Below are positions 83-43,424 of a DNA stretch of 43,968 bases, in pieces. This DNA comes from a virus (lineage: Duplodnaviria > Heunggongvirae > Uroviricota > Caudoviricetes): IMG/VR virus record IMGVR_UViG_3300045988_181214. One strand, given 5' to 3'. Position numbers and translations under genes: made by a program. The notes beneath the pieces are model-generated. The model made no database searches. It was not told the origin of the DNA and saw only the letters and a list, made by a program, of their open reading frames with translations. Positions within the stretch are counted from its first letter, which is position 1, and every line of letters starts with the position of its first letter.

Positions 83-158
83 CGCGGCGTGGAGCAGTTG
101 GTAGCTCGCCAGGCTCATAACCTGGAGGTCGCATGTTCGAGTCTTGCCGCCGCAACCA
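83..158 (+). tRNA. tRNA-Met (anticodon CAU), initiator (fMet) type
   Basis: Cloverleaf readable by eye: acceptor CGCGGCG/CGCCGCA with unpaired C1:A72, D arm GAGC-AGTTGGTA-GCTC, anticodon arm CCAGG-CTCATAA-CCTGG (CAT at 116-118), T loop TTCGAGT, encoded CCA. Confidence 0.85.
140..156 (+). repeat. attL core (direct repeat shared with attR)
   Basis: AGTCTTGCCGCCGCAAC, identical to 43408-43424; covers T-arm and acceptor 3' strand of the tRNA. Confidence 0.75.
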
Positions 159-160
159 AT

Positions 161-207
161 ATCGGGTAAGAAGTTGGAAACAACATTCTTATCCGATTTT
201 CCGTTTT
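161..207 (+). terminator. Rho-independent terminator downstream of tRNA (phage-supplied copy)
   Basis: 12-bp stem ATCGGGTAAGAA / TTCTTATCCGAT (one G-U pair), 13-nt loop, then TTTTCCGTTTT. Confidence 0.5.
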
Positions 208-274
208 GGGGAGGGACGGAAGCGAAATACTTTATTGTTGAATATCATTGGCTGGCAACGGACAATGAAAAAAA

Positions 275-1438
275 ATGACTGCAAAAGAAATTGATTTTTT
301 GAGCTCGCGTGAAATAGTAGGTTTCACGCTGCCTGTGTTGCATACCAAGGGCGGTTACTGGTATGTTGACTTTACTGCCTTTGACCCTGTTTCGGGTCGG
401 ATGAAGCGCAAGAAATATATGCTTAATAGGTACAAGACTGACCACAAGAAGCGTATGATGGGTACCTTGCTTATCCACAATATCACGGCAAAATTGACCG
501 CTGGATGGAATCCTTGGGTGAATGCCGACAAGTCGAGACAATTCACCGAAATACCAATTATCTTTAGTCGTTATCGTGATTATATTAAGTCGATGACCGA
601 CAAAAAGTCGATGAAGGAAAAGACCTCTATCGACTACCTCAGCCGCCTCAAGACTCTGGAGTCTTTCATCACTGAGTGCAAGAGTGTCAAATATGCCTAT
701 CAGATTGACCGTGCCTTCGCCATCGACTTCTTAGACCACCTGATGTATGACCGTGATGTGAGTGCTACCACAAGAAACAACTATCGCTCTTGGCTTGTCT
801 CCTTCGGCACTTGGCTTATGGATAGAAAATATATCAGCGAGAACCCTGCCATCGACATCAGAAACATCGCTCAGAAGGAGAAGTTCAGAGACCCTTTGAC
901 CGAGGGCGCGCTTAAGAAGCTGAAGACTTATCTCTATGATAACAACAGACATTTTCTCTTGGCTTGCCTCTTTGAATATTATACCTTTATCCGACCGAAT
1001 GAGTTGACGCAGATAAGAATCAAAGATGTGTCGATTGCTGACCAGACGGTCTTTATCAGTTCTGCCATCAGCAAGAACCGTAAGGACGGACTTGTGGCAT
1101 TGAACGATGAAATCTTGAAGCTCATGATAGAGCAGAAGATATTTGAGCATCCGGGACATTGTTTTATCTTTGGCAAGGGGTTGAAGCCTGGTGAGGAGCG
1201 AGCACCTTATAACCAACTGAGAGTAGAGTGGGGCAAGATGCGAGATGCTATTGGGTTTCCGAAGGAGTATCAGTTTTATAGCCTGAAGGACACTGGCATC
1301 AGGGATTTGGCGAACGCACAGGGTATCGTGGTCGCCAAGGATCAGGCACGCCACTCTGATATATCTGTGACGAATCGATATATCAAGAACCAGATGAAAG
1401 TGAACGAGGAGACCAAGCACTTCAAAGGTGGGCTTTAG
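275..1438 (+). CDS. int: Tyrosine recombinase / phage integrase
   Basis: 387-aa ORF next to tRNA-att site; C-terminal ARHSDISVTNRYI matches the box II H-x-x-R ... Y catalytic region of tyrosine recombinases. Confidence 0.85.
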   Translation: MTAKEIDFLSSREIVGFTLPVLHTKGGYWYVDFTAFDPVSGRMKRKKYMLNRYKTDHKKRMMGTLLIHNITAKLTAGWNPWVNADKSRQFTEIPIIFSRYRDYIKSMTDKKSMKEKTSIDYLSRLKTLESFITECKSVKYAYQIDRAFAIDFLDHLMYDRDVSATTRNNYRSWLVSFGTWLMDRKYISENPAIDIRNIAQKEKFRDPLTEGALKKLKTYLYDNNRHFLLACLFEYYTFIRPNELTQIRIKDVSIADQTVFISSAISKNRKDGLVALNDEILKLMIEQKIFEHPGHCFIFGKGLKPGEERAPYNQLRVEWGKMRDAIGFPKEYQFYSLKDTGIRDLANAQGIVVAKDQARHSDISVTNRYIKNQMKVNEETKHFKGGL

Positions 1439-1495
1439 TCTCCTCGATGAGGTGGTGTCGTGGCTTCGCTGGTTTGTGTTTGATGAGTAGCGAAG

Positions 1496-3394
1496 TTACG
1501 ACATCATATAAAAATATCCTGTATAGATAGGCTCAATCTGGTCATCCTTGACCTCCATCTCTATTTTTTCGCATACGAATTTTTTGTTGTGTATGATGTA
1601 TGTGTGAGATGGGTCAGGGATGGTATCAGATTGAAATTTTACCTGAAGGCAGTTTTTGTTGTCTATCTTGAGACCGCTGTCGTGGAGCTCACCCAAACAG
1701 GTTCCTGCTTGCCAAGCCTTGTTTAGGGATAGGGAAGCCATCAGAACGGTTGGAAACGTGCCAATATTGCCAGGATCGAGCAACTCCATCCTATACATGG
1801 AATTGATGCGGCTGTCAGTCATGAACTGCGGCCATCTGGACTTCTCCCCTACCCATGAGACGTTGCCATTGAGTGGGTGTTCGTATTTTTGAACTTTGCC
1901 AGGCACTATGAAAAACACATTCATGCACTCCTGGTCATCCTCGGAATCATCCAAGGTGGACTCATCATCGATGGCATCCTGTATGGAGACGTAGTTGTAG
2001 CCATCCTCGTCTGTGTCGCTCTCTTTGGCTTCGGCTTCTTTGTCGTTTGGCATAGACAGGAGGCAGCGCCATTCGCTGTGTTTACCCTCAAAAAGAAAAG
2101 ACCTAAAGCTAACATTTTCCACGACCTGTGCTGCTGGGGATATGTTGAGGTCTGTGTAATCATCGGAGGAGTTATCCCTTATCAGTGGCGACCAGACACC
2201 AGCCAACTGCCAGCTCTTGTTGCCGTCGGTATCCTCGACATATATATAATAATCGCTGCCCAGATGACGGATGATGGTGGTGCGCTTCTTCTTCTCGGAC
2301 CATCCACTGGTAGTGGCAGGAAACTGAAAGTTGGTACCAACGGCTGTCTCGAACGAATCGACTATATCGAAATTATCAAAAACTTTTTTGGGAATGACTT
2401 CGTAATCACCTCTGTTGGCTGAGTCGCCTAAGTTGTACTGCAGGTTGGCTGTCGATGAGGTTGAGAACGAACCATCGGCATCGTAGTCGGTGGTGTACTC
2501 GTCGAGTGTCTCTATCTCTACGGAGTCGGCGGATGATAGCTCTGAGGACTTGATGACCTGACAAGTCTTTTTGATGTCGTCGAAGTATATGGTGGCGTTG
2601 AAGAGCTTGCGGAACTCCTCGATGAAGGTGTAGCTAGTCCAATGAGGAAGGGCACGGCGAAGCTCTAGGGTCTTGAAGGCGGAGGCGATGTAGAGCAAGT
2701 TCCATGGAGAAACATCGAGGTCGTTGCGTGTGAGGGTGTAGCCCTCGTAGGCGATGACTCGCTTGAAGATGTACATCAGGTTGGGCTGCACGGCGACGTT
2801 GCTGATGTATGGATCTTTGCTGCCTATGAAATTGCCCGTGCGGTCAACGCCCACGAAATTGGCTATCATGTCGTTGGTCTCGTCTCTGACTGGCATGAAG
2901 CACCACTTGCCCTGCTCGCCCAGAAACTTGCTCTGGTCGGCGACGAGCCTATAGACGGATTGAACCTTGGGGATGTTTTTCCAGCCCTGTGAAAAACCTT
3001 TATCTACCGTATAGCCTGGTGCGGATGCCTTGCCGAAGTCTATCTCGTCGATGTAGTGCTTGGTCATCTTGTCGTTGAACTTGATGCGAGACTTGCCGCC
3101 CACTATCTGAAGCTTTATCTCAGAGTCGGTGACGCTGATGATGGTACCCACGCCAGAGAGTACCAGGCGACCGCTCACGTAAAGCTTGCAATCGTTGTAG
3201 GTCTGGGTGGATTTGGAGACATCGAAGCGGCTCACGTTGTGGAAAACTCGGCGGTTGGGCATTATTGCCATGGGGAAATTGATGTCGTAGGAGTATTCGC
3301 CATCGTCGGTGACGTATTGGTTGGCGTATGTGAGCTTGATGGATTGGCTGGCAGCCGGATAGGCTGCCATGCCATTGATGATGCATGTTATCAT
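1496..3394 (-). CDS. Phage tail protein immediately downstream of TMP (distal tail/tip protein candidate)
   Basis: 632-aa ORF, ATG start, 33 nt after TMP stop; position typical of distal tail or tail-tip proteins; acidic segment near C-terminus. Confidence 0.5.
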   Translation of the reverse strand: MITCIINGMAAYPAASQSIKLTYANQYVTDDGEYSYDINFPMAIMPNRRVFHNVSRFDVSKSTQTYNDCKLYVSGRLVLSGVGTIISVTDSEIKLQIVGGKSRIKFNDKMTKHYIDEIDFGKASAPGYTVDKGFSQGWKNIPKVQSVYRLVADQSKFLGEQGKWCFMPVRDETNDMIANFVGVDRTGNFIGSKDPYISNVAVQPNLMYIFKRVIAYEGYTLTRNDLDVSPWNLLYIASAFKTLELRRALPHWTSYTFIEEFRKLFNATIYFDDIKKTCQVIKSSELSSADSVEIETLDEYTTDYDADGSFSTSSTANLQYNLGDSANRGDYEVIPKKVFDNFDIVDSFETAVGTNFQFPATTSGWSEKKKRTTIIRHLGSDYYIYVEDTDGNKSWQLAGVWSPLIRDNSSDDYTDLNISPAAQVVENVSFRSFLFEGKHSEWRCLLSMPNDKEAEAKESDTDEDGYNYVSIQDAIDDESTLDDSEDDQECMNVFFIVPGKVQKYEHPLNGNVSWVGEKSRWPQFMTDSRINSMYRMELLDPGNIGTFPTVLMASLSLNKAWQAGTCLGELHDSGLKIDNKNCLQVKFQSDTIPDPSHTYIIHNKKFVCEKIEMEVKDDQIEPIYTGYFYMMS

Positions 3395-3427: not shown

Positions 3428-6400
3428 TTATTTGTTTGACTTCATTTTTTGATATTGGCTCCATTGGCGGTCGAAGCCATCGGGGCCGGTGATGACCACG
3501 TATGACTTGATGCCAGCGTTGAGCTGCTCGTTGAGTCTGTCGATGGTGGTATGCACGCTATCGAGGGATGCGCCCATCTGCTCGGTGTCGCCACCTGAGA
3601 CGTTGACCACTGGGGCGACCACGGCTGCGCTGCCTGTGCCCATGGCACGGCTCACGTCTTGGGCGGTGAGCGAGGCGACCGTGTTGTTGCGCTGCGCCAT
3701 ATCGATGAGCTGCAGGGCAGGGAGGAGCTGAGGATTGTTGACGGCGTTGTGGTTGGCGACGAACTCGCCAGCGTGAACCACGCCAGCCTCTTTCTTGTAA
3801 TTGCCAGGACCAGTGAAACCACCCTCGTAATAGCCAGCCGCCTCTGCCTGGTGCTGCTTTTTGATTGTTGCTATCTGGAGCATGCCCGCTGCGGTGGCGA
3901 GACCTGCGGCGATAGGACCAAGGATGTGACCCACCACTGGGATGGCTGCGGCTGATGAGTAGGCGTTGATGGCAGCCATGGCGGTTGAAGCTATGGCTTG
4001 TGCGATCTCTATCTTCATCGCCTTTTTGTTGGCCTTGCTCTTGGCTGCAGCCACCTCTTTGTCTCGCTTCGCCTCGAGACGCTTTTTCTTGGCTGAGTTG
4101 TTGCCAGCGGCAGAAATCTGCTTATCGTAGTTTTTCTCAATCTTGGCGACCTCTAGGTCTGAGCATGCCTGGGAGTAGGCGGAGGCAGCGCCCATCATCG
4201 TGTTGATGCTGCTGAAGGCAGCGCCAGCGATGGAGGCTATCTCTTGATAGGTCTCTTTGTTCATCTGCTTTTTGGCATCCTGGTATTGCTGCTCGCTGAT
4301 TTTATCCTCGTCTCGAAGATTTTTGAGGTTATCGTTGACCATCTTTTGCTGTTGGATGGCTGCGATGGCACCACCAGCGATTGTGGCGAGGTTGTCGCTG
4401 CCCATGGCATTGTTGCTGTCACCATTGCCCTTGGTCATCTTTTTGGCGGTGTCGAGGGCGGTGTTGGCATCCTCCTTGCGCTGCTCATCGGCGGTTGGCT
4501 TGTATGAGGCGTATTTGTTGGCGATGCCCATCTTTGTGCGCTGGTATTCCTCCTCTCTGATGAGACCTGCCTTGTAGATGGCTTCGAGTCCCTGCAGATC
4601 TAGCTGCATCTGCTCTTCGTTGCCGAGCTTGCCGTATTCTTGGCGCAGCTGAAGGAGTTGCTCGTCGTGCTGCTTCTGAAGGTCGTATTTGCGTTGCTGT
4701 TGGGTCAGCTCTCGCTCTTTCTCGATCTGGGCATACTCGTCAGATGAGGAGAGGTAGAGGGCTTGCTTTTTGTTGAGATAGTCCTGGTATGAGAGGAAGA
4801 GAGCCTCGTTGACGGCATCCTCATTGTGATAGAGGTTGGAGTCTTTGTTGTAGTAATCGGCATTGAGCTTCATTTCTTTTTTCTGTCGCTCGGTCTCCAG
4901 GGCTTCGAGGTCGGCGGTCTGCTTTTTCTCGTAGTCGGCGGCGATATTCTCTTTCTCAGCGTTCAATCGCTTGAACTCTTCGCTCTCTGCCTCGCCATAC
5001 TTTTTGAGGATGTCGAGGCGAGCCTGAAGCCCCTGTTCTTTGATATTCTTCATCTTCTCGTTGTATTCGGCGAGTCGAATCTGACCTGTAGCGTAGAGGG
5101 TCTTGGCATCGAGCTCTTCGGCTTGGTTGGCTTTCTTTGCATCGTCTAGCTCTTTTTTCATGTCAGCCTTGCGCTTAGCCTCTGCCTTGCGAGCGGCAGC
5201 CTCACGTTTCTTTTTCTCCTTTTCGGCAGCTTTGCGCTCTTTCTCGGTCATGGTATGACCAGAGGAAGGGGTGGTGTGTGTCTCTGTAGTTGCGCTATTG
5301 TTTAGTAAATTCTTCTTTACAGTCTTGTTGTACTGTTTCTGCAAATTTACGTTTTTCTCTAATTGCTGATTATAGAAATTCTCTTCAGCATTGACTTGCT
5401 TTTGCAGGCTTAGGTTTGCCTGTAGTCTTTGCGTATGAACTTGCTTTTGCTTCTCGTTACTCTTCAGTGCCTCGTTTTGTTCGATGAGCTGACCTGTCCA
5501 TCCATCAGCCACGGCATTGCTCTCATATTGCTTAGGATGAGCCTTGCGCTCAGCATCGACAGCCTTCAGCGAATATCGTATGCGGCTTTCTTTTTGTTTG
5601 AGTTCCAGTTTCTTTTTATTGATTTCCACCTTGCGCTCATAGATGGCTTCTGCCATGGCAGCATTTTCTAGCTCCTTGATGTAGTTTTGGATGGCAATCT
5701 GGTTGTCGTTATACAACTTGCCCTCTTTGGAGATAGAGGCGTGATATTCTGGGACGAGCTTTATCATATTTGCGATAGCTTGCTTTCGCTCGTCAACGGT
5801 ATAGGCATTGGAGTGGATAACCTTGTTGAGCATATCGACCTTGTTGCGCTCATCGAGGGTAGCATCAGACACCTTTTTGGCGAGGCTGGCTTGAGCCTCT
5901 GCCACTGCTCTGTTGTTTTTAGCCTCTTGCGTGTTGTTGCGCATCGCCTCGTTGTAAGATGTTATGGCTTTGTATGCCCCATAGGCAGCCACGCCCACCA
6001 CGGTGATGACTGTGGCGAGGGCAGCCCATGGATTGGTGAGACTTGCTAGGCGTGCTGCCCTCATCACCACGATGTAGCCCTGTATGCCTTTTGTGAGATA
6101 AGCCCATGTGGCTTGCAGTGCCACTAAGGCAGCACGCAAGAGTGTAGATGTAGCGGTATAAGCTTTATCGACAGCTGAAGCGTATTGTACGGCGGCTGTT
6201 TTAATCTTAATGGCGATGGTCTCCTTGTACCAGAGAGCAGTACAAACAGCGATGGCTGTTGACAGCACGGCTATTTGTTTTGCATAGGTGACGGTGAAGG
6301 TGATGAGCGTGGACATGACCTTTATGGTCAGACTGAATGATGTGATGCCATATTTCATGGCAGGGATGAGTTTTTCTCCGAGTTCGATGGTGAGGTCTTG

Positions 6401-7774
6401 GAATCGCTTCTTGGCTTTGTCTAGTTCTGCCTGTACCGTTGTATTCTGGGTATTGAACTCATTGATGACACTGGTACCGTCGGCATACGACTTGGTGGCG
6501 ATGTCTTGCGCCTCTTTCACTTGGTCGAGGTGTGTAGCCACGGCGGAGAGAACGCCCACGGCACGGGTGCCGTTAAGCTGCATCTCCTCAAACATCGGTG
6601 CCATCTCGGCGAAACCTCCCTTTGACTTCATCGCTTGCATGAACTTCATCAAGCCCTCATTGGCGTTGGTCTTCATCAGGTTGGAGAACTCCTTGACCTG
6701 CATGCCCGCTATCTTGGCGAACTTGGCTGGCTCTTGGTACATCTTGGTGATGAGCTGTGAGAAGACGGTGGCGGAAGTCGCCTCCTCTTGCATGTTTTGG
6801 TCGAGGGCAGAGGCGAGACCCATCAGCTGTGCCTGGGTCATGCCGGCCTGGATGCCGACACCTGAGAGGTCGGCGGTGAAATCGACGATGTAGCCAGCGT
6901 TTGCAGATGAGCTTTGTGCCAGCTCATTGACGGCGGAACCTGTGGCGAGCATCGCACCACGAAGGCCTTTGGTCTTATCCTCACCAAACATCTGGGCGAG
7001 CTTGCCGATTTTATCGACCGCCCCCTTGCCGAGGTCATCGCCGAGGGTGACATTGATTTTGTCGGCACCATCAACGAACTCCTCGATCATCTCTTTGCTG
7101 GTGATGCCGAGGCGACCGGCAGAGCCAGCCAGCTCGTTGAGCTGCTCACGAGCTGTGCGGGTATCCATGCGCTTGAAGTCCTCGTTCATCTGATGAACCT
7201 GTTCGTCGGTCTGACCGGTGTATTTGCGCACGTCTGCCATCGACTCCTCCATGTCGGCATAGGCTTGGGCTGCAGCTCTCAAAGTAAGAGTGAGTGTGGT
7301 GAGACTGCCCAGTATCTGGGTGAAGGCACCCCAGTTTTTGTTAAGACCATCCCACATTCTAGAGAACAAACTTCTGGAAGCTTTACCTTCGTCGTTGATG
7401 TGCTGCATCTCTGCTCGCACTTGCTTTAATTGCTTTTGCAGTTTTTTCCATTCGTCTGAGTTGCGCTTGATGGCACCGCTTTTCAACTCTCTGTTGAGAG
7501 CCTTGGCGACTAGTTGCAGCTCCTTGTATGATGCAGAAGAAAGATTGTTGAGAACTTGGTTAACCTTCTCTTGGCTAGTCATGTATGCTTTTGTCTCAGC
7601 CTTTAATCTCTTTATCTGTCGTTCGAGGGCTGTTGTTGACTCGCCCTTTGCATAAGCCTCGTCTCTGGCTTTTTGCACTTCTTTCAGCTTGTTTTGCAAT
7701 TCGTTGAGTTTATCCTTAGCCTCTTTGGTGTCAAGAATAACTCTGCTAACATGGGTATCTGTATTTGTTGCCAT
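3428..7774 (-). CDS. Tail tape measure protein
   Basis: 1448-aa ORF; long Lys/Glu/Gln-rich coiled-coil N-terminal half, central hydrophobic helical block, Ala/Gly-rich C-terminal region. Confidence 0.8.
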   Translation of the reverse strand: MATNTDTHVSRVILDTKEAKDKLNELQNKLKEVQKARDEAYAKGESTTALERQIKRLKAETKAYMTSQEKVNQVLNNLSSASYKELQLVAKALNRELKSGAIKRNSDEWKKLQKQLKQVRAEMQHINDEGKASRSLFSRMWDGLNKNWGAFTQILGSLTTLTLTLRAAAQAYADMEESMADVRKYTGQTDEQVHQMNEDFKRMDTRTAREQLNELAGSAGRLGITSKEMIEEFVDGADKINVTLGDDLGKGAVDKIGKLAQMFGEDKTKGLRGAMLATGSAVNELAQSSSANAGYIVDFTADLSGVGIQAGMTQAQLMGLASALDQNMQEEATSATVFSQLITKMYQEPAKFAKIAGMQVKEFSNLMKTNANEGLMKFMQAMKSKGGFAEMAPMFEEMQLNGTRAVGVLSAVATHLDQVKEAQDIATKSYADGTSVINEFNTQNTTVQAELDKAKKRFQDLTIELGEKLIPAMKYGITSFSLTIKVMSTLITFTVTYAKQIAVLSTAIAVCTALWYKETIAIKIKTAAVQYASAVDKAYTATSTLLRAALVALQATWAYLTKGIQGYIVVMRAARLASLTNPWAALATVITVVGVAAYGAYKAITSYNEAMRNNTQEAKNNRAVAEAQASLAKKVSDATLDERNKVDMLNKVIHSNAYTVDERKQAIANMIKLVPEYHASISKEGKLYNDNQIAIQNYIKELENAAMAEAIYERKVEINKKKLELKQKESRIRYSLKAVDAERKAHPKQYESNAVADGWTGQLIEQNEALKSNEKQKQVHTQRLQANLSLQKQVNAEENFYNQQLEKNVNLQKQYNKTVKKNLLNNSATTETHTTPSSGHTMTEKERKAAEKEKKKREAAARKAEAKRKADMKKELDDAKKANQAEELDAKTLYATGQIRLAEYNEKMKNIKEQGLQARLDILKKYGEAESEEFKRLNAEKENIAADYEKKQTADLEALETERQKKEMKLNADYYNKDSNLYHNEDAVNEALFLSYQDYLNKKQALYLSSSDEYAQIEKERELTQQQRKYDLQKQHDEQLLQLRQEYGKLGNEEQMQLDLQGLEAIYKAGLIREEEYQRTKMGIANKYASYKPTADEQRKEDANTALDTAKKMTKGNGDSNNAMGSDNLATIAGGAIAAIQQQKMVNDNLKNLRDEDKISEQQYQDAKKQMNKETYQEIASIAGAAFSSINTMMGAASAYSQACSDLEVAKIEKNYDKQISAAGNNSAKKKRLEAKRDKEVAAAKSKANKKAMKIEIAQAIASTAMAAINAYSSAAAIPVVGHILGPIAAGLATAAGMLQIATIKKQHQAEAAGYYEGGFTGPGNYKKEAGVVHAGEFVANHNAVNNPQLLPALQLIDMAQRNNTVASLTAQDVSRAMGTGSAAVVAPVVNVSGGDTEQMGASLDSVHTTIDRLNEQLNAGIKSYVVITGPDGFDRQWSQYQKMKSNK

Positions 7775-7796
7775 AATTGAATATTTTATTTTATGG

Positions 7797-7804
7797 CAAA
7801 GGTA
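7797..7804 (-). promoter_or_regulatory. -7 promoter element (TAccTTTG) for the TMP operon
   Basis: Minus-strand TTACCTTTGCC 23 nt upstream of TMP ATG, just after a terminator hairpin. Confidence 0.45.
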
Positions 7805-7808
7805 ATAA

Positions 7809-7850
7809 GGAGGAAAACATAATAAAAATACGAGACCGTATGTATTGCGG
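7809..7850 (-). terminator. Intrinsic terminator hairpin (13-bp stem) with T-tract
   Basis: AAATACGAGACCG / CGGTCTCGTATTT inverted repeat; on the minus strand followed by TTTTTATTAT; the 20-mer ATAATAAAAATACGAGACCG is repeated at 10321-10340. Confidence 0.55.
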
Positions 7851-9603: not shown

Positions 9604-10029
9604 TTATGCGATGTCTTTGTATTCGTCGATGGCATTGAAGCAAGGACACATCTTCTTCCATTTGGACTTGTCCTTGCCCCAGATGTCACGATGGCCCATT
9701 ATCTGGGCATCTGGGAATTGTTGCTTCAGTTTGTGGAGTAGCAAAACGAGGGCGTCTTTTTGCTCTGGTGTGCGGTTGTCGATAGCCTTGCCCTTAGCGT
9801 CGATGCCACCGATATAGGCGACGTTGATGGCTGTGGAGTTGTAGCCCTGCACGCCGTTGCTCACCTTTTCGATGGCTAGGAGTTGGTGGATGCCGCCGTT
9901 TGGGGCGATGACGTAGTGATAACCTGGATTGGTCCAGCCCTTGCGGCGGAACTCTGCCTTGAGGTCGTCGATGGACTGGCTTTGCGACCCTGCGGTGCAG
10001 TGAACGAAAATGCGTTTAATCTGTCTCAT
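9604..10029 (-). CDS. N-acetylmuramoyl-L-alanine amidase (endolysin)
   Basis: 141 aa from ATG; motifs IFVHCTAG, GYHYVI, NSTAINVAYIGG, HRDI...CPC typical of amidase_2/PGRP-type lysins. Confidence 0.75.
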   Translation of the reverse strand: MRQIKRIFVHCTAGSQSQSIDDLKAEFRRKGWTNPGYHYVIAPNGGIHQLLAIEKVSNGVQGYNSTAINVAYIGGIDAKGKAIDNRTPEQKDALVLLLHKLKQQFPDAQIMGHRDIWGKDKSKWKKMCPCFNAIDEYKDIA

Positions 10030-10270
10030 TATTTTGCTTGTTATGATTGAACAATTTGTTTTTGATGTTGTCGAACTTGGCATCGATGGCGATGGCTACG
10101 CCGAAGATGGAGCCGGCATACATGAGCGACTGGGCAAAGTACCAGAGCACATTGTCGGTGACATCACGAGCCTGGGAGGTGAAGTAACTGATGTAAACCA
10201 GTATGATGGCGAGGAGGAGCACGGCGATGGCTGAGCCGTATTGTATCCATTCTTTAGTATTTCTCTGCAT
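10016..10270 (-). CDS. Holin
   Basis: 84-aa protein with two hydrophobic helices and a charged C-terminus; overlaps the start of the amidase gene. Confidence 0.6.
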   Translation of the reverse strand: MQRNTKEWIQYGSAIAVLLLAIILVYISYFTSQARDVTDNVLWYFAQSLMYAGSIFGVAIAIDAKFDNIKNKLFNHNKQNNETD

Positions 10271-10297
10271 GGTGAATCTTGTTTTTGTTTTACAGTG

Positions 10298-10305
10298 CAA
10301 AGATA
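10298..10305 (-). promoter_or_regulatory. -7 promoter element (TAtcTTTG) for the lysis cassette
   Basis: Minus-strand TTATCTTTGCACT 28 nt upstream of holin ATG. Confidence 0.45.
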
Positions 10306-10320
10306 AGAAGGGTAGGGTGA

Positions 10321-10358
10321 TAATAAAAATACGAGACCGCCCTAACGATCTCGTATTA
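10321..10358 (-). terminator. Intrinsic terminator hairpin with T-tract
   Basis: Stem ATACGAGA / TCTCGTAT with a 12-nt loop, followed on the minus strand by TTTTTATTAT; shares an identical 20-mer with 7809-7828. Confidence 0.5.
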
Positions 10359-10784: not shown

Positions 10785-12359
10785 TCACGTGAATTTATAG
10801 AACTTCTTTTTGAATTTATTGTGAAGCTCTGCGACCACGGTGGAGAAGGGTAGCTCATCACGACAGAAGTCGTTGAGGGCTTGGTCTATCAAGATCTTGG
10901 AGCCTGTATAGAGGTAGTGCTCCAGAGGTTGCCATACCTCGGTGCCGTCTGGCTCCAGGTGGTCGATGATGCGATAGCGTAGGGAGAGGCGCTTCTTGGG
11001 CACCTCTTTGGTGACCATGTGGGTGGAGCCGTCCGGGGCGGTCTCCTCTTGCTGGATGGTCTCCTTCTCTATCACCGAGTCATCGACCTTGTAGTCTATC
11101 ACTTGAACGAGGAACTTGTTCTCGTCCTGACCCTCACGGCAGATGATGTCCTCGATGGACTGCTGCTGTGATTTCTCCATACCGTCAAAAGGCACGCGCG
11201 CACGGCGAGCCTTGACGAGTTTACCGAATCTTTCCATACCGATTTTCTTATATAAGTTTTTAGAGTTTGCGTGGATGCCCAGACCTAGGCGAGAGGCTGC
11301 CTTGAGCTGTATCTGGCGGTCTGTGAAGCCCGCCTTGCGTAAGTTGGCGATCTGTCTGCAGAGGTCGTGCTTGAACCGCTTGCGCAACAGGGCGTGGTCG
11401 GCGTAGATGATCTGACCGCATAAGTCGATGCCATCGCAGGTGCGGTGGATACCCCAAGACTTATTGATGGATAGGTGCCAGTCACGGGCGAGGTGCATCA
11501 CGGCAAGCTCTGCCATCAGCCTGAGGAACACCTTATCCTCGTGGAGGATGTAGATGTTGTCCATGAAGCGGTAATAATGGCGAAGACCTTGGCGGCAGAA
11601 GCGCTCGAACCTATCGTTGAGCGACTTCACTCCCCCGCATAGCAGTTGAGCTTGCTGCTGAGTGCGACAGGTAACGAGCATGTCGCTCACGTAGCGAGCC
11701 TGCCAGTAACGGAACTTGTCGGTGTCTTGGAGAATGTCGAAGCATCGGAGTGCCAGGTAATCGAAGCGGGCGAGGAAGAGCTGACCCAAGAGTTGGGCGA
11801 GCTTGACGCCGAGCACGATGCCTGGATTGAAGCTATCGACCACCTCGTCGATGAAGGCGAGGAGCTTGCGGTCTTTGATCTTGCGGCGATATTCACTTTT
11901 GAGAAGAGCGTGGTCTATGCTCTGAAAATAATGGTGAATATCCATGGGCAAGCAGTAGAAGGTATCTTGCTGTGGCGAGTTGAAGATGTCTCGCTTGACA
12001 AGATTATAGAAATAATGGGTGCCCTTGCCCTTGGAACCAGCCGGACTGTGGCTGTAGAGTGTCTTGCGAAGGTTATCCTCTACAGGTTGCAGGGCAGCGT
12101 GCTGGATGACGTGGTCGATAACGGGCAGCTTGTTGACTTGGCGATGTTTTGGATAGTCGATATCTTTGGCGACATAGGCTGAGGTATGCCAAGTTTGTTG
12201 GGTGTAAGCATCGAGCATGCGTCCGATGTTATGGTCTAGGTTTGCCTCGAATTTTTGGACCGCACGGCGAGACATCTTTTGTCGGGCGTAGTCATAGAAT
12301 GCCCGACGAAAGTTGTCTAGTGTCTCGACCTGTAGCGATATGTTGCCAAACCTTTTCAT
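10785..12359 (-). CDS. Reverse transcriptase (DGR-type), catalytic motif non-canonical
   Basis: 524 aa from first ATG (track ORF starts at GTG 12428); RT motif 2 SPAGSKGKGTHY, motif A LPMDIHHYFQSIDH, motif B-like GIVLGVKLAQLLGQLFLARFD; sits 208 bp downstream of the template repeat. Confidence 0.8.
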   Translation of the reverse strand: MKRFGNISLQVETLDNFRRAFYDYARQKMSRRAVQKFEANLDHNIGRMLDAYTQQTWHTSAYVAKDIDYPKHRQVNKLPVIDHVIQHAALQPVEDNLRKTLYSHSPAGSKGKGTHYFYNLVKRDIFNSPQQDTFYCLPMDIHHYFQSIDHALLKSEYRRKIKDRKLLAFIDEVVDSFNPGIVLGVKLAQLLGQLFLARFDYLALRCFDILQDTDKFRYWQARYVSDMLVTCRTQQQAQLLCGGVKSLNDRFERFCRQGLRHYYRFMDNIYILHEDKVFLRLMAELAVMHLARDWHLSINKSWGIHRTCDGIDLCGQIIYADHALLRKRFKHDLCRQIANLRKAGFTDRQIQLKAASRLGLGIHANSKNLYKKIGMERFGKLVKARRARVPFDGMEKSQQQSIEDIICREGQDENKFLVQVIDYKVDDSVIEKETIQQEETAPDGSTHMVTKEVPKKRLSLRYRIIDHLEPDGTEVWQPLEHYLYTGSKILIDQALNDFCRDELPFSTVVAELHNKFKKKFYKFT

Positions 12360-12567
12360 AAGCGGTGTAATGTCTGTGTTGAACGGTGTATAAACTGTGT
12401 ATAGTCTGAATCGTCTGCTTTTGTACACTTGATAACCTTCGACCGGATGACCGTGTTGTCATCATCTACCAGCTGTCTTATTAATGTGTATGTATCGCCA
12501 TGGGGCGAGGATTGACCCTGTAATCTCGAAGTGGGAGCAAACGACCCACGAAGAGATATGTCTGTAA

Positions 12568-12689
12568 GTTGAGGGCGGCGCCGTAGTTCACATTGGCATT
12601 CGAGACAGCATTGTTCACGTTGAGCGTTGAAAGACCGCATTGACCACCATTGTTAGCGTTAGCACCACGAAGGCAGACACGAAAACCGG
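12568..12689 (-). repeat. DGR template repeat (TR), noncoding
   Basis: 122 bp matching 12979-13100 at constant offset 411 with no indels; 9 mismatches, all at T on the plus strand (A on the transcribed strand); Asn (AAC)-rich in the target frame. Confidence 0.85.
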
Positions 12690-12723
12690 CACCTAGGGTC
12701 ACACCCTGGTATCATAACCGCCG

Positions 12724-14400: not shown

Positions 14401-14422
14401 AATAAAAATTATATTTAATCGA

Positions 14423-25526: not shown

Positions 25527-25540
25527 GGAAGGAAGGGGAG

Positions 25541-29061: not shown

Positions 29062-29076
29062 ATCTTTTGTTATTTG

Positions 29077-34953: not shown

Positions 34954-36063
34954 TTACTCCTTGCCCTCAGCTCCGGTATCGTCTGCAGAAGAATTCTTCT
35001 GCTCTGCATCGCTAGCTGTGTTGCTGCTTGCAGGATCAGCACCTGAACCCTTTGTGATGAGCGATGTGGTACCATCGTTTGTGATGAACAGGGCTCGTTC
35101 TTTATTGATGCTCTCGTACTGGCAACCTAAGAACTTGGTGGCGATGAAGTCGAGCTTCCAAGGGTGGTACTTTTCTACGCTGATCTTCTCCTCGTCGCTG
35201 TTGTTTGCCTCGTTGACACCCACGAGCATATTGTTGCGAGTGGTGAGCTGGAAGAACGGAGCGTTCTTCTTGTTGATGAGTGGTACCATCTCAACGTTGT
35301 CGAAACCCTCGACGGTGTTGTGGTTGTAACCGGTATTGTATGGCACATTGCCAAACTTATTGAGGTAGTTGCGGTTGTAGAGATTGATGAACGCCTGTGG
35401 AACGTAGAGATAAAGCTTCTCTTCGCCAATCAGTTCTTCGTCAGCCTCCTCGCAAATGGCCTGTGCGAAGTCAACGGCGTTATCGCTGCTGATATTCTTA
35501 CCACTGCCCAAAATATCTGAAACTTTGATGAGGTTGCCGAGGTCTCGAGACAGCTTGCCATTAGTCAACTCAGTCTTGGCGATGGTATCGAAACCATTGA
35601 AGAGGTCTTTTGAGCCTTTGCCCTCGTCGTTGCGCACGGCATCGAAGAGGTGGAGGTTGAGGTTCTTGCCCAGCTTGAGCGCCAAGAGCTGCAGCACCTG
35701 AAGGGTGATTGGCACGTTCTTAAGCGCTTCGCCATTCATGGCGTTGGCCCCCCAAATGGTGGAATAAACTGAGTTCGGGGAGAACTTGATGTCAACGTTG
35801 CCGAGGAACACCTGCAAAGTGCGAGGTGTAATCTTTACGCCACCATCGCCCACGCGGTTCTCGTCGTATGGACCAAACTCTGCGTTGCCGAGCAACTCGC
35901 CCACGGTCTCTGAAACTCTGATGCCCGGGCGCAGGGTCATGTACTTGAGTGACTGAGCCAAGCCTTTGGTAGGCATCGTAATCAACTTCGAACGGTAAGT
36001 TTTCGCAGTGTTCTGCAGCTGTACATCGACATCTACAGGCACAATGAATTTATTATCTGCCAT
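34954..36063 (-). CDS. Putative major capsid protein
   Basis: 369 aa from ATG (track starts at TTG 36072); immediately follows the prohead protease-scaffold gene; size fits HK97-fold capsid proteins. Confidence 0.5.
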   Translation of the reverse strand: MADNKFIVPVDVDVQLQNTAKTYRSKLITMPTKGLAQSLKYMTLRPGIRVSETVGELLGNAEFGPYDENRVGDGGVKITPRTLQVFLGNVDIKFSPNSVYSTIWGANAMNGEALKNVPITLQVLQLLALKLGKNLNLHLFDAVRNDEGKGSKDLFNGFDTIAKTELTNGKLSRDLGNLIKVSDILGSGKNISSDNAVDFAQAICEEADEELIGEEKLYLYVPQAFINLYNRNYLNKFGNVPYNTGYNHNTVEGFDNVEMVPLINKKNAPFFQLTTRNNMLVGVNEANNSDEEKISVEKYHPWKLDFIATKFLGCQYESINKERALFITNDGTTSLITKGSGADPASSNTASDAEQKNSSADDTGAEGKE

Positions 36064-36064
36064 A

Positions 36065-37090
36065 TTATGCAAACTGATTTAAAACATCCAACACTTGATC
36101 TGAGCAGAAATCCTCGACCTTGGTGTCATCGACAGCAGTGTGCGTGTCGCCACCAGGCTCTCCCTCCAGATCCTTCACTTTATCCTTCAGGTCATCTCTC
36201 TCCTTTTCGAGATTCTTGACCTTAGTCTCTAACTCCTTCTTCTCGTCCTTGACCTTCTGAAGCTCTGTGTCTTTGTCGGTCACGGCCTTGGAGTCGGCAG
36301 CGATCTTATCCTCCAGTTTCTGCATCTGCTCCTGTGAGATTGTGCAGTTCTTTGCGGAATCTTCTGCCTCAATGCCCTCGATATTGAGGACATTGTTGAT
36401 GTGAGTCCATTTTTTGATCATATTAATAATTTTATTTTGTGATTTATCTTTGCCGAATAATCGGTCGATGATGCTTGGCTTTTTATCATACCAGGAGTTA
36501 ACAACCTCTGGGAGAACAGGAAGGTTGTTGTACTTGATGAAGTCTTGCGTCTGCTCGGTGATGTCGGCAGGCTTGCCATCCATGGCTTCATCGACGAGAC
36601 CCAGTTCGATGCACTCATCGACGGTGTGCCACATCGCTTCGGACATCACCTTGACGATGTCCTCGTGCTTCTTGCCCGAGCGATCGCAGTAAACGTTGGC
36701 GATGATGTTGTCGATTTTCTGCTGGTTCTCTTGCTGTTTTTGAAGTTGCTCGATGAGCGAGCCTATCTGCTCCTCGTTGAGCGCAGACCACACAAACTGC
36801 TCGGTAGAGCACTTGTGTACCAGGAGCAAGCTATATTTGCTCATGCGAATCTTGCTGGCACCCATCGCACAGATGGTGGCAGCAGAGGCAGAGAAGCCCG
36901 CCTGGAAGTCAACGGTCACGTCGCCATGGGACTTGAACATCTGACAGATGGCGAGACCTGCGGAGACCTCGCCACCCAAGGAGTCGATGGCAACATCGAC
37001 GTGCTTATCTTTGTTGGCCTTAAGAACATCGCGAACCATGAGCTTGGTCCACGAGCCAATATATCCTGTGATAGAAATTTGGTACTTCAT
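36065..37090 (-). CDS. ClpP-family prohead protease with C-terminal coiled-coil (scaffold-like) domain
   Basis: IDSLGGEVSAGLAI, catalytic Ser in GFSASAA, His in LVHKC, Asp in GLVDEAM align with ClpP; C-terminal ~100 aa is a Lys/Glu/Asp-rich coiled-coil. Confidence 0.8.
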   Translation of the reverse strand: MKYQISITGYIGSWTKLMVRDVLKANKDKHVDVAIDSLGGEVSAGLAICQMFKSHGDVTVDFQAGFSASAATICAMGASKIRMSKYSLLLVHKCSTEQFVWSALNEEQIGSLIEQLQKQQENQQKIDNIIANVYCDRSGKKHEDIVKVMSEAMWHTVDECIELGLVDEAMDGKPADITEQTQDFIKYNNLPVLPEVVNSWYDKKPSIIDRLFGKDKSQNKIINMIKKWTHINNVLNIEGIEAEDSAKNCTISQEQMQKLEDKIAADSKAVTDKDTELQKVKDEKKELETKVKNLEKERDDLKDKVKDLEGEPGGDTHTAVDDTKVEDFCSDQVLDVLNQFA

Positions 37091-42423: not shown

Positions 42424-42613
42424 TGTTCTTCATTCTGAATTTAACAATACCTGCCACGATGCCGTCTTCTTGGTCATCGTAGAACATATTTAAATCTGTT
42501 GTGCCCTTATGGAGTGTACCATAGGACACGTCAACGGCAACGCTGGCATCCTCGAAATCTTTGAGGATGGCTTGAAGCTGTTTGCTGTTGCATCTGACTG
42601 TCATTTTTCCCAT
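42407..42613 (-). CDS. Hypothetical early protein
   Basis: 68-aa ORF, ATG start, overlaps neighbours. Confidence 0.4.
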   Translation of the reverse strand: MGKMTVRCNSKQLQAILKDFEDASVAVDVSYGTLHKGTTDLNMFYDDQEDGIVAGIVKFRMKNNEKED

Positions 42614-42819
42614 GATCCATCATTGATAATTTGCTCGATGACCTCTCTGTCGATGGCACGCCAAGTATTGGTGCGCATCTTATTGTAGATGGTGTTCTGG
42701 CTCATCTCTAGCTTTAGCTGCAGTGTGGCCATGAACTTGCTTCTCTTTTTGCGTGGTATCTCATTATACCATGCGAGGATGATATTTTCATCATCATTTT
42801 TTTTGTTTTTTTCTTGCAT
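42601..42819 (-). CDS. Small DNA-binding protein (Cro/excisionase-like), first gene of the leftward early operon
   Basis: 72 aa; HTH-like ATLQLKLEMSQNTIYNKMRTNTW; transcribed divergently from the repressor. Confidence 0.5.
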   Translation of the reverse strand: MQEKNKKNDDENIILAWYNEIPRKKRSKFMATLQLKLEMSQNTIYNKMRTNTWRAIDREVIEQIINDGSWEK

Positions 42820-42836
42820 ATTCCAATATTTATTAT

Positions 42837-42855
42837 TAATTTTGTTGCAAAGTTA
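42837..42855. promoter_or_regulatory. Face-to-face divergent promoter elements in a near-palindrome (lysogeny switch region)
   Basis: TAATTTTG-ttg-CAAAGTTA: plus-strand TAatTTTG (42837-42844) and minus-strand TAacTTTG (complement of 42848-42855). Confidence 0.4.
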
Positions 42856-42940
42856 GTAATAAAAATCGGAAAATACTAACGAAAGTAAGTAAAAACACCT
42901 ATGATAATAGGTTAAATATTATTAATTAAATTAGGTAATT

Positions 42941-43318
42941 ATGTTTAATGGTCAGATAATCAGAAAGTTAATGTCGGATGCTGGCTTAACTAAAAAAGAG
43001 TTTGAAAGACGTATGTTCGGTAGTAAATCGACCGACCTCAACCATTTGGAAAAAGCGAAGAATCTTCGCAGTGACACTCTCGAACGTCTGCGTGAGGTGT
43101 TGAAGTGCTCTATGGATGACTTCTTTACAGCACCCTCATGGGCTGAGAACGGAAAGGGGACAGTCGTAGGCTCTAACAATGTGCTGTCAACAGTAGCCAT
43201 CGGCAACGAAGTGATGGAAGCCCAATATCTCAAGGAGTTGCTCTTGGAGAAGGACAAACGCATCAGCACTTTGGAAAATTATATCAAGCTTCTGGAGACT
43301 AACTTAAATAAGGACTAA
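42941..43318 (+). CDS. XRE-family helix-turn-helix repressor (CI-like)
   Basis: 125 aa; N-terminal HTH IIRKLMSDAGLTKKEFERRMFGSKSTDLNHLE; C-terminal coiled-coil; divergent from the early operon and next to attR. Confidence 0.65.
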   Translation: MFNGQIIRKLMSDAGLTKKEFERRMFGSKSTDLNHLEKAKNLRSDTLERLREVLKCSMDDFFTAPSWAENGKGTVVGSNNVLSTVAIGNEVMEAQYLKELLLEKDKRISTLENYIKLLETNLNKD

Positions 43319-43407
43319 TACGAAACATAATTCGTAAGATGAATCCTTATATATAATAAGGTGTATAAAATATATCGTATAATCTCAGCAGTGATATCCA
43401 ACTCGTT

Positions 43408-43424
43408 AGTCTTGCCGCCGCAAC
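43408..43424 (+). repeat. attR core (direct repeat of the tRNA 3' segment)
   Basis: AGTCTTGCCGCCGCAAC identical to 140-156. Confidence 0.75.

What the first reader, a model, noticed from the sequence alone, without database searches (positions are those of the whole stretch)
140..43424. Complete prophage in initiator tRNA-Met with a 17-bp att core
AGTCTTGCCGCCGCAAC occurs at 140-156 (inside the tRNA T-arm and acceptor stem) and at 43408-43424. The integrase starts 119 bp from attL and the repressor ends 90 bp from attR. The tRNA has the C1:A72 mismatch characteristic of bacterial initiator tRNA, so the phage occupies the tRNA-fMet locus and rebuilds the gene's 3' end from its own copy.
Basis: partly seen in the sequence, partly recalled or inferred. 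Interest (0 to 1): 0.6.

Follow-up and report, generated by a model that had tools for sequence, protein, structure and literature searches.

The report
Gut Segatella prophage in initiator tRNA
A 43.3-kb temperate tailed phage of the human-gut Segatella (Prevotella) copri complex sits in the 3' end of the initiator tRNA-Met gene and carries its own copy of that 3' end. This is an ordinary, well-understood way for phages to integrate, and the phage itself has no match in GenBank phage records or in the papers searched.

Summary
AGTCTTGCCGCCGCAAC occurs only at 140-156 and 43408-43424 (0 of 100 shuffles gave two copies). The first copy is nt 58-74 of a tRNA-Met(CAU) with initiator marks C1:A72 and A11:U24.

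- **Empty sites:** two metagenome contigs of the same host clade carry the uninterrupted site SLT-tRNA-TetR. Window 1-156 joined to 43425-43968 matches them with 5 and 8 mismatches in 700 bp. Eighteen S. copri-complex reference genomes also show empty sites.
- **Boundaries:** near-identical copies of the phage ends lie in at least four host backgrounds, and the change from identical to divergent sequence falls at the core on both sides.
- **Phage content:** tyrosine integrase, CI-like repressor, HK97-fold capsid, protease, probable portal and terminase, tape measure, amidase and a canonical diversity-generating retroelement.

- The phage arm also supplies the CCA end, which the native gene does not encode, and a mimic of the native terminator hairpin.
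- The anticodon stem has only two of the three canonical G:C pairs.

No attP junction of this exact phage was found; relatives show P-core-P' junctions. Verdict: a new member of a known kind, of modest interest.

The parts
83..158 (+). Hybrid initiator tRNA-Met(CAU) gene. The 5' part is host DNA. The bases from somewhere inside 140-156 onward, including C75 and A76 at 157-158, come from the phage.
   Evidence: ARAGORN; Rfam tRNA 60 bits. C1:A72, A11:U24, G30:C40 and G31:C39 are read. Native copies are 74 nt and lack an encoded CCA.
140..156 (+). attL core (tRNA nt 58-74)
   Evidence: Exact 17-bp repeat. The boundary between host-type and phage-type sequence falls here.
161..197 (+). Hairpin on the phage P' arm followed by a T-run. 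It mimics the native tRNA terminator.
   Evidence: RNA fold gives -20.1 kcal/mol, z -5.7; inverted repeat I1. It is conserved in the P' arms of 39 related IMG/VR loci.
275..1438 (+). Tyrosine integrase (387 aa)
   Evidence: phrog_1 5.6e-31. PF00589 scores 45.2 bits against a cut-off of 27.1; PF02899 also hits. Relatives at 86-100% identity lie beside the same tRNA 3' end.
1496..3394 (-). 632-aa ORF of unknown function next to the integrase
   Evidence: No hit in PHROGs, Pfam, NCBIfam or PADLOC. The exact protein occurs in 383 blocks of public assemblies.
3428..7774 (-). Tape-measure-like protein (1448 aa)
   Evidence: phrog_25337 1.7e-51 and nine other PHROG families, eight of them tape-measure families
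9604..10083 (-). Amidase / endolysin
   Evidence: phrog_822 1e-43
10785..12428 (-). DGR reverse transcriptase
   Evidence: phrog_1423 2.1e-52; PADLOC RT
12411..12512 (-). RT-17 RNA motif upstream of the reverse transcriptase
   Evidence: Rfam RF03020, 59.9 bits against a gathering score of 40.4
12571..12689 (-). DGR template repeat (TR)
   Evidence: 119-nt repeat. All 7 differences from the VR lie at TR adenines.
12928..14448 (-). Tail protein that is the DGR target. The variable repeat lies at 12982-13100, near the 3' end of the gene.
   Evidence: phrog_5302 2.3e-58; repeat
22744..24150 (-). Probable portal protein (468 aa; the real ATG is at 24150)
   Evidence: Homologues are about 465 aa. 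The AF2 model is poor (pLDDT 55), but all 50 best Foldseek PDB hits are phage portal or head-to-tail connector (neck) structures, best E 2.2e-5.
30500..32101 (-). Probable large terminase (weak)
   Evidence: phrog_2 E 1.1e-4 only. Nothing in Pfam, NCBIfam or PDB.
34954..36072 (-). Major capsid protein, HK97 fold
   Evidence: AF2 pLDDT 80, pTM 0.76. Foldseek PDB top hits are phage capsids: phiRSA1 7oz4, P4 procapsid 7jw1 and HK97, E 5e-10, probability 1.0.
36065..37090 (-). Head maturation protease
   Evidence: phrog_94 1.5e-29 and other protease families
42601..42819 (-). First early ORF (72 aa), divergent from the repressor. Cro- or Xis-like by position only.
   Evidence: ORF list. It is conserved next to the repressor in L003-L012 and L069. 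No family hit.
42941..43318 (+). CI-like HTH repressor (125 aa)
   Evidence: phrog_3 8.6e-5; PF13443 HTH_26, weak. The exact protein occurs in 487 blocks of public assemblies, always followed by the same host genes.
43408..43424 (+). attR core: the displaced native 3' fragment of the tRNA
   Evidence: Exact repeat. Phage-identical sequence ends here and host-specific sequence begins.
43431..43469 (+). Native tRNA terminator hairpin with its T-run (host DNA)
   Evidence: RNA fold gives -19.8 kcal/mol, z -7.3. The same sequence follows the intact tRNA in the empty sites L076 and L077.
43590..43968 (+). Host TetR-family regulator, cut off by the end of the window
   Evidence: PF00440 in the homologous loci. 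It is 98-99% identical in the empty-site contigs L076 and L077, 166 bp downstream of the tRNA.

Best explanation
Window 140-43424 is a temperate tailed phage (Caudoviricetes) of a Segatella copri-complex bacterium. Its unique length is 43,268 bp.

**Integration.** It entered by tyrosine-integrase recombination between its attP and the 3' end of the host initiator tRNA-Met gene. Strand exchange took place somewhere inside the 17-bp identity, which spans tRNA nt 58-74 (end of the T-loop to C74).

**The two junctions.** attL (83-158) is a complete hybrid tRNA. Its trailer (C75, A76 and a terminator-like hairpin at 161-197) comes from the phage. attR (43408-43424) is the displaced native 3' fragment, still joined to the native trailer, the native terminator and the host TetR gene.

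**Regulation.** The integrase (275-1438) sits at the attL end. A CI-like repressor (42941-43318) faces a divergent early operon at the attR end. Excision would rebuild attP as 43319-43424 joined to 157-274.

**Shown versus inferred.** Shown: the repeat, the tRNA, the gene content, the empty sites, the boundary mapping and the spread across hosts. Inferred: the chemistry of the integrase, the present ability to excise and make virions, and the terminator role of the hairpin.
For: - **Repeat and tRNA:**
- **Empty site in the same host clade:** L076 and L077 carry SLT (99%) - intact 74-nt tRNA-Met - TetR (98-99%) with no integrase, repressor or capsid gene. Window 1-156 joined to 43425-43968 matches them ungapped with 8 and 5 mismatches in 700 bp.
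- **Empty sites in reference genomes:** 18 S. copri-complex genomes have an empty site whose trailer is identical to the host side of attR in L003, L004, L006 and L013.
- **Left boundary:** L034 and L035 differ from the window at 19 of 139 host positions, but at no more than 2 of about 4,000 phage positions.
- **Right boundary:** L003 and L007 differ at no more than 2 of 3,000 phage positions, while the host side diverges immediately after the core (66-73 of 100 positions in three other flank types).
- **Site specificity of the family:** 36 IMG/VR relatives and 10 ENA copies of the integrase (86-100% identity) all lie directly after the same tRNA 3' end.
- **Recombined junctions in relatives:** P-core-P' junctions (repressor, then core, then integrase, with no tRNA) occur in L069 and L038.
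- **Phage genes:**
- **Hairpins:** the phage and native hairpins fold equally well.
- **General mechanism:** as described for tDNA islands in PMC4383910.
Against: - No attP junction of this exact phage was found in IMG/VR or in JGI metagenomes. Excision and circularisation are therefore not shown for it.
- The P-core-P' junctions of relatives could be tandem-lysogen junctions rather than free genomes.
- The large terminase is supported only weakly (E 1.1e-4), and the portal rests on a low-confidence model.
- No excisionase was identified.
- The tRNA departs from the textbook initiator. It has A29:U41 in place of G29:C41, and a pyrimidine:pyrimidine mismatch at 52:62.
- Whether the host has further tRNA-fMet genes is unknown.
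Confidence: 0.9

Rival explanations
1. It is a defective or cryptic prophage. Integration happened as described, but the element can no longer excise or form particles, so 'complete prophage' overstates the case.
For: There is no attP of this exact phage in three collection scans. No excisionase was recognised. Support for the terminase and the portal is weak. Many ORFs have no family hit.
Against: ORF packing is contiguous with no obviously broken genes. The phage ends are virtually identical (no more than 2 differences in 3-4 kb) in at least four different host flank types, which requires recent horizontal movement. The exact repressor and the exact 632-aa protein occur in 487 and 383 assembly blocks. 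Relatives show P-core-P' junctions.
Confidence: 0.08
2. It is not a phage but another integrative element, such as an integrative conjugative or mobilisable element or a phage satellite, that uses the same tRNA site.
For: Bacteroidales carry many tRNA-targeting integrative elements (established knowledge: NBU1, NBU2). The gene order is unusual: the protease and capsid genes lie upstream of the terminase, and a tape-measure-like gene lies next to the integrase.
Against: It carries an HK97-fold capsid protein, a protease, a portal-like protein, a tape measure, a tail protein, an endolysin and a phage-type DGR. No relaxase or type IV secretion match turned up in any scan. At 43 kb it is a typical tailed-phage genome. 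IMG/VR holds related contigs of 43-44 kb.
Confidence: 0.02
3. The target is not the initiator tRNA but an elongator tRNA-Met, a tRNA-Ile2 (CAU modified to lysidine), or a degenerate extra copy.
For: Only two of the three canonical anticodon-stem G:C pairs are present (A29:U41). The T-stem has a U52:U62 mismatch. The number of tRNA-fMet genes in the host was not determined.
Against: The C1:A72 mismatch, A11:U24, and G30:C40 with G31:C39 are all initiator marks, and elongator Met and Ile2 tRNAs have a paired 1:72 (established knowledge, read). The gene and its 52:62 mismatch are conserved across the S. copri complex, which argues against a decaying copy.
Confidence: 0.05

Closest known systems
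tRNA-gene (tDNA) integrating prophages and genomic islands with tyrosine integrases, as catalogued by Islander (PMC4383910). Classic cases from established knowledge are P4 (leuX), P22 (thrW) and HP1 (tRNA-Leu).
   Same: The integrase lies next to the tDNA. Integration splits the gene, and the element restores it from its own copy. The intact gene and a displaced 3' fragment mark the two ends. The identity block starts in the T-loop, which is one of the recognised sublocations.
   Different: The target is the initiator tRNA of a Bacteroidota host. The phage arm also mimics about 45 bp of the native trailer and terminator, and in this phage it adds an encoded CCA that the native gene lacks. The integrase shares no detectable sequence match with any solved structure.
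Bacteroides mobilisable elements NBU1 and NBU2 (integration into the 3' ends of tRNA-Leu and tRNA-Ser; from established knowledge, not tested here)
   Same: Bacteroidales host, tyrosine integrase, and a short identity block at the 3' end of a tRNA gene.
   Different: Those are small mobilisable elements without virion genes. This one is a 43-kb tailed phage.
Hankyphage, the DGR-bearing temperate Bacteroides phage (PMC6199706)
   Same: A temperate gut Bacteroidales phage of about 43 kb with a DGR. Its two repeats of about 117-119 bp differ only at adenines, and the target is a structural gene.
   Different: Hankyphage encodes a Mu-like transposase for integration. This phage uses a site-specific tyrosine integrase at tRNA-fMet. 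There is no nucleotide similarity outside the DGR region to any GenBank phage record.

Membership tests
tDNA-integrating element (Islander-type island or prophage) | Tyrosine integrase gene adjacent to the target tRNA gene | tested here: met
   PF00589 scores 45.2 bits against a cut-off of 27.1; phrog_1 5.6e-31. The ORF starts 119 nt after the core.
tDNA-integrating element (Islander-type island or prophage) | An intact tRNA gene at one end and a displaced fragment of the same gene, as a direct repeat, at the other end | tested here: met
   17-bp exact direct repeat covering tRNA nt 58-74; 0 of 100 shuffles reproduced it.
tDNA-integrating element (Islander-type island or prophage) | An uninterrupted target in related genomes with the predicted junction | tested here: met
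   L076 and L077 belong to the same clade (5 and 8 mismatches in 700 bp). 18 reference genomes also have empty sites.
tDNA-integrating element (Islander-type island or prophage) | An excised circular form carrying attP | tested here: inconclusive
   Not found for this phage. P-core-P' junctions exist in relatives with 86-91% integrase identity (L069, L038), but they could be tandem junctions.
Bacterial initiator tRNA (tRNA-fMet) | CAU anticodon | tested here: met
   ARAGORN
Bacterial initiator tRNA (tRNA-fMet) | Unpaired 1:72 (C1:A72) | tested here: met
   5' CGCGGCG pairs with 3' CGCCGCA, leaving 1:72 unpaired, read. It is flagged as non-canonical in the Rfam alignment.
Bacterial initiator tRNA (tRNA-fMet) | Three consecutive G:C pairs at 29-31:39-41 | tested here: not met
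   The anticodon stem is CCAGG/CCUGG. G30:C40 and G31:C39 are present, but 29:41 is A:U. This holds in all S. copri-complex copies seen.
Bacterial initiator tRNA (tRNA-fMet) | A11:U24 in the D-stem | tested here: met
   The D-stem is GAGC/GCUC.
Bacterial initiator tRNA (tRNA-fMet) | Formylation and use at the ribosomal P-site | not testable with these tools
   Requires biochemistry.
Tailed phage (Caudoviricetes) | HK97-fold major capsid protein | tested here: met
   Model pLDDT 80. Foldseek PDB gives E 5e-10, probability 1.0, to phage capsids.
Tailed phage (Caudoviricetes) | Portal and large terminase | tested here: inconclusive
   Portal: poor model, but only portal or head-to-tail connector structures among the hits. 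Large terminase: phrog_2 at E 1.1e-4 only.
Tailed phage (Caudoviricetes) | Tail and lysis genes | tested here: met
   Tape measure 1.7e-51, tail protein 2.3e-58, amidase 1e-43.
Diversity-generating retroelement | Reverse transcriptase plus a TR/VR pair that differs only at TR adenines, with the VR at the 3' end of a target gene | tested here: met
   RT 2.1e-52. 119-nt repeats. 7 of 7 differences lie at TR adenines. The VR lies 54 nt from the stop of the tail gene. RT-17 RNA motif present.
Diversity-generating retroelement | Accessory variability determinant (Avd) | tested here: inconclusive
   No family hit for the 135-aa ORF at 10371-10778. The other small ORFs in the cassette were not examined.
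Tyrosine recombinase catalytic signature (R-K-H-R-H/W-Y) | Canonical box II HxxR | tested here: inconclusive
   The box II region reads Y335-S-L-K338-D and is invariant in 26 homologues. The equivalence to His-II and Arg-II rests on my own motif alignment. hhalign against Cre did not align the catalytic domain, and there is no PDB sequence match.

The most novel reading that the evidence does not exclude
The integrase belongs to a large clade of Prevotella/Segatella phage integrases in which box II reads YSLKD. In that reading Tyr335 and Lys338 stand where His-II and Arg-II of the canonical R-K-H-R-H/W-Y set are expected. The clade is evidently active, because identical phage ends occur in several hosts. 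If the alignment is right, this is a naturally working tyrosine recombinase without the second catalytic arginine. The natural C/T polymorphism at tRNA nt 62, which is always the same in attL and attR, could then be used to map its strand-exchange region.
Probability: 0.3. Interest if true: 0.45.

Novelty: new member of a known kind. Interest (0 to 1): 0.3.

Why it matters
The S. copri complex is one of the most abundant and most studied bacterial groups of the human gut, yet it has few characterised temperate phages.

- **Precise att sites.** This locus gives exact attL, attR and attB sequences for a widespread phage lineage. Its exact repressor occurs in 487 blocks of public assemblies.
- **A marker for lysogeny.** The junctions give a simple PCR or read-mapping marker for lysogeny and excision.
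- **A tool candidate.** The integrase and its att site could serve for site-specific integration in a genetically difficult genus.
- **Biology.** The phage carries a tail-targeting DGR. It also replaces the trailer of the initiator tRNA gene, which may or may not affect tRNA-fMet maturation.

None of this changes current understanding of how phages integrate.

Tried and rejected
- **attP of this exact phage.** The exact junction pattern gave no hit in IMG/VR or in JGI metagenomes. The P-arm-plus-core pattern found one IMG/VR contig, which is an attR.
- **GenBank phage records.** There is no near match except 76-78% identity over the DGR region in two unannotated faecal contigs.
- **Literature.** No paper in the held library describes a prophage in tRNA-fMet of S. 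copri. Williams 2002 is not held.
- **Sequence-only annotation of the capsid, portal, terminase, 994-aa and 632-aa proteins.** Pfam, NCBIfam, PADLOC and PDB sequence searches found nothing useful. Structure prediction was needed instead.
- **Terminator scan.** The consensus scan did not flag the hairpins because their loops exceed 8 nt. Folding did support them.
- **Mapping the crossover from the C/T polymorphism at core position 5.** I first inferred that exchange lies 3' of that base, then withdrew the inference. attL and attR carry the same allele in all 8 contigs with both ends, and the host flank type is not strictly linked to the allele. The position within the 17 bp therefore stays unresolved.
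- **'The phage supplies CCA' as a general feature.** Rejected. Among 49 attL junctions read in relatives (39 IMG/VR; 10 ENA), only the P' arm type carried by this phage encodes CCA; P' arms of other types read CAA, CTA, CTC and so on.
- **Cre comparison.** hhalign of the integrase family against Cre did not align the catalytic domain.

Full report
**1. The observation**

The 17-mer AGTCTTGCCGCCGCAAC occurs exactly twice in the window, at 140-156 and 43408-43424 on the + strand, even when two mismatches are allowed. None of 100 dinucleotide-preserving shuffles gave two copies.

ARAGORN finds a single tRNA, tRNA-Met(CAT), at 83-158. The Rfam tRNA model scores it at 60 bits, E 1.2e-10. Reading the sequence, the gene parses as CGCGGCG-UG-GAGC-AGUUGGUA-GCUC-G-CCAGG-CUCAUAA-CCUGG-AGGUC-GCAUG-UUCGAGU-CUUGC-CGCCGCA-ACCA.

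The repeat is therefore tRNA nt 58-74. It covers the last three T-loop bases, the 3' strands of the T-stem and acceptor stem, the discriminator A73 and C74.

The integrase ORF starts at 275 and the repressor ORF ends at 43318. Both distances match the finding.

**2. Is it the initiator tRNA?**

- C1:A72 is unpaired.
- The D-stem carries A11:U24.
- G30:C40 and G31:C39 are present.

By established knowledge these are initiator marks. Two departures are worth recording:

- 29:41 is A:U, so only two of the three canonical G:C pairs are present.
- 52:62 is a U:U mismatch, flagged in the Rfam alignment.

Both features are native. Every S. copri-complex copy seen has A29:U41 and a pyrimidine:pyrimidine 52:62, as U:C, C:C or U:U. 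I rate the initiator identity as well supported. Function was not tested, and the number of tRNA-fMet genes in the host is unknown.

**3. Is it a prophage?**

PHROGs identifies the following:

| Coordinates | Call | E-value |
|---|---|---|
| 275-1438 | integrase | 5.6e-31 |
| 3428-7774 | tape-measure-like protein, 1448 aa | 1.7e-51 |
| 9604-10083 | amidase | 1e-43 |
| 10785-12428 | reverse transcriptase | 2.1e-52 |
| 12928-14448 | tail protein | 2.3e-58 |
| 36065-37090 | head maturation protease | 1.5e-29 |
| 30500-32101 | large terminase (weak) | 1.1e-4 |
| 42941-43318 | HTH repressor | 8.6e-5 |

Many ORFs have no family match at all. Sequence searches of the PDB were empty.

I therefore modelled two candidates:

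- **The 372-aa protein downstream of the protease (34954-36072).** The model has pLDDT 80. Its best PDB matches are HK97-fold phage capsids: phiRSA1, the P4 procapsid and HK97 itself, at E about 5e-10 and probability 1.0.
- **The 468-aa protein at 22744-24150.** The model is poor (pLDDT 55). Even so, all 50 best matches are phage portal or head-to-tail connector structures, best E 2.2e-5. I call it a probable portal.

Together with the size (43,268 bp between the cores) and the tight ORF packing, this is a tailed temperate phage. It is not a conjugative or mobilisable element.

**4. The empty-site test**

A scan of one genome per species returned 20 loci, all from the Segatella copri complex.

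- In 18 of them the intact tRNA is followed directly by AATGATCGGGTAAGAAGTTGG...TTATCCGATTTTTTT and the TetR promoter region.
- That is the same sequence that follows the attR core in other lysogens of this phage: L003, L004, L006 and L013.
- One locus, L025, is occupied by a related element.
- One locus, L022, has a different trailer.

A metagenome scan for the window's own flank type found two contigs, L076 and L077. Window 1-156 joined to 43425-43968 matches them without gaps at all but 8 and 5 of 700 positions. Their native core reads AGTCTTGCC..., as in the window.

ARAGORN calls a 74-nt tRNA-Met in both contigs. tblastn finds the upstream SLT-domain gene at 98.6-99.3% identity and TetR at 98.4-99.2%. 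It finds no integrase, repressor or capsid gene.

**5. Boundary mapping by comparison of lysogens**

The exact repressor protein is listed in 487 blocks of public assemblies. In the ten places shown it is always followed by TetR, a short-chain dehydrogenase, a pseudouridine synthase and TamB. The exact 632-aa neighbour of the integrase is listed in 383 blocks.

I anchored the comparisons on the core.

- **Left side.** L034 and L035 differ from the window at 19 of 139 host positions. They differ at no more than 2 of about 4,000 phage positions.
- **Right side.** L003 and L007 differ at no more than 2 of 3,000 phage positions. The sequence after the core diverges at once in the three other host flank types.

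The mobile unit therefore ends at the 17-bp core on both sides. Essentially the same phage sits in at least four host backgrounds. That requires recent horizontal movement, and it is the best available argument that the phage is functional.

**6. The integrase family and attP**

Relatives of the integrase at 86-100% identity were found in 42 IMG/VR loci.

- 39 of them contain the core.
- In 36 of those, tRNA sequence lies to the left of the core.
- Ten further ENA copies show the same arrangement.

Two loci have a different left arm:

- **L069** lies mid-contig in a 40,998-bp viral contig. It reads repressor homologue, 115 bp, core, P' hairpin, integrase.
- **L038** has the P arm of another phage type, then core, P' and integrase.

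ARAGORN finds no tRNA in either. These are P-core-P' junctions. They represent either attP of free, circularly permuted genomes or junctions of tandem lysogens. Either way they result from recombination at this core.

For the window's own phage, no such junction was found in IMG/VR or in JGI metagenomes.

**7. What the phage arm supplies**

After C74 the native gene of this clade reads AATG..., so CCA is not encoded. attL reads CAAT..., giving ACCA. ARAGORN accordingly reports 76 nt in lysogens and 74 nt in empty sites.

This is not general. Other phage types in the family carry other bases after C74.

What is general is a hairpin plus T-run on the P' arm. It closely resembles the terminator of the commonest S. 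copri attB.

| Hairpin | Free energy |
|---|---|
| Phage P' arm (161-197) | -20.1 kcal/mol |
| Native, this clade (43431-43469) | -19.8 kcal/mol |
| Commonest S. copri attB | -20.9 kcal/mol |

All three have z-scores below -5.6. The homology between attP and attB therefore extends about 45 bp beyond the exact core. The hairpin most plausibly preserves termination of the tRNA transcript before the integrase gene; that role is inferred.

**8. Polymorphism inside the core**

Core position 5 (tRNA nt 62) is C in most lineages and T in the window's lineage.

- In 44 of 44 attL junctions where the acceptor 5' strand is visible, T62 goes with C6 and C62 goes with U6.
- In all 8 contigs where both junctions are visible, attL and attR carry the same allele (and the window).

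Phage copies with identical arms therefore carry whichever allele the host has. I could not turn this into a crossover map, because flank type and allele are not strictly linked. The exchange point inside the 17 bp remains unresolved.

**9. Comparison with known systems and novelty**

The anatomy is the textbook tDNA-integration scheme: the gene is split, the element restores it, and a displaced fragment marks the far end (PMC4383910). The identity block starts in the T-loop, a recognised sublocation.

The nearest described DGR-bearing Bacteroidales phage, Hankyphage, integrates with a Mu-like transposase. It shares no DNA similarity with this phage. GenBank phage records match only the DGR region, at 76-78% identity. 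No paper in the held library describes this phage or a tRNA-fMet prophage in Segatella.

It is a new member of a known kind.

**10. Verdict**

- Confidence is 0.9 that this is a site-specifically integrated temperate phage at tRNA-fMet with its boundaries at the 17-bp core.
- That it is currently inducible is inferred, at roughly 0.7.
- Interest is 0.3. The finding is correct, tidy and useful for S. copri genetics and virome work, but it is mechanistically ordinary.

Noticed in passing
window 10785-14448 (RT 10785-12428, RT-17 RNA 12411-12512, TR 12571-12689, VR 12982-13100): The prophage carries a canonical diversity-generating retroelement aimed at the C-terminus of a tail protein. All 7 TR-to-VR differences lie at TR adenines, and the Rfam RT-17 motif lies upstream of the reverse transcriptase.
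   Followed up: yes
window 7793-7831, 10294-10332, 20152-20190, 25515-25553: A roughly 39-nt repeat lies upstream of minus-strand ORFs. Three copies sit 13-20 nt upstream of an ORF start: the 1448-aa gene, the 1159-aa gene and the 353-aa gene. The fourth (10294-10332) precedes only an unverified TTG ORF (10016-10300) that overlaps it. Its reverse complement ends in TAnnTTTG, the Bacteroidota -7 promoter motif, so these are probably the phage's late promoters.
   Followed up: partly
window 83-158; L014-L033, L034-L075, L076, L077, L110-L119: The native initiator tRNA of the S. copri complex has a pyrimidine:pyrimidine mismatch at T-stem pair 52:62 (U:C, C:C or U:U, never Watson-Crick) and A29:U41 in the anticodon stem. 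In many lineages CCA is not encoded.
   Followed up: partly
window 144 and 43412 (core position 5); attL and attR of L001-L119: The C/T allele at tRNA nt 62 tracks the host acceptor-stem allele (C6 with T62, U6 with C62) in 44 of 44 attL junctions. It is the same in attL and attR in 8 of 8 contigs with both ends, even for phage copies whose arms are otherwise identical. It is unexplained whether this reflects a need for identity in the overlap region or homogenisation of the two copies.
   Followed up: partly
window 275-1438 (residues Y335-K338, R343, H360, Y369): In the integrase and 25 homologues at 53-90% identity, box II reads YSLKD instead of HxLRH. Tyr and Lys appear to replace His-II and Arg-II. 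This rests on motif alignment by eye; hhalign against Cre was uninformative.
   Followed up: partly
window 28378-29601: A RadC-family gene (28378-29061; NCBIfam 1.1e-51) lies next to a 174-aa ORF (29077-29601) that matches the PADLOC models ShosT and PsyrT (1.6e-9 and 9e-9). They may be an anti-defence or defence-related cargo pair.
   Followed up: no
L025; L081 1993-2100: L025, a GTDB S. copri genome, has a related element in the same tRNA whose P' arm is identical to the host trailer for about 21 further bp. In L081 the attR core is followed by a P'-like hairpin remnant without an integrase and then an inverted SLT gene, which suggests a decayed earlier insertion or a rearrangement at the site.
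   Followed up: no
window 1-82: A Bacteroidota-type promoter motif (TACCTTTG at 44-51) lies about 30 nt upstream of the tRNA. The upstream host gene, seen in L001 and L110-L119, encodes an SLT-domain protein.
   Followed up: no
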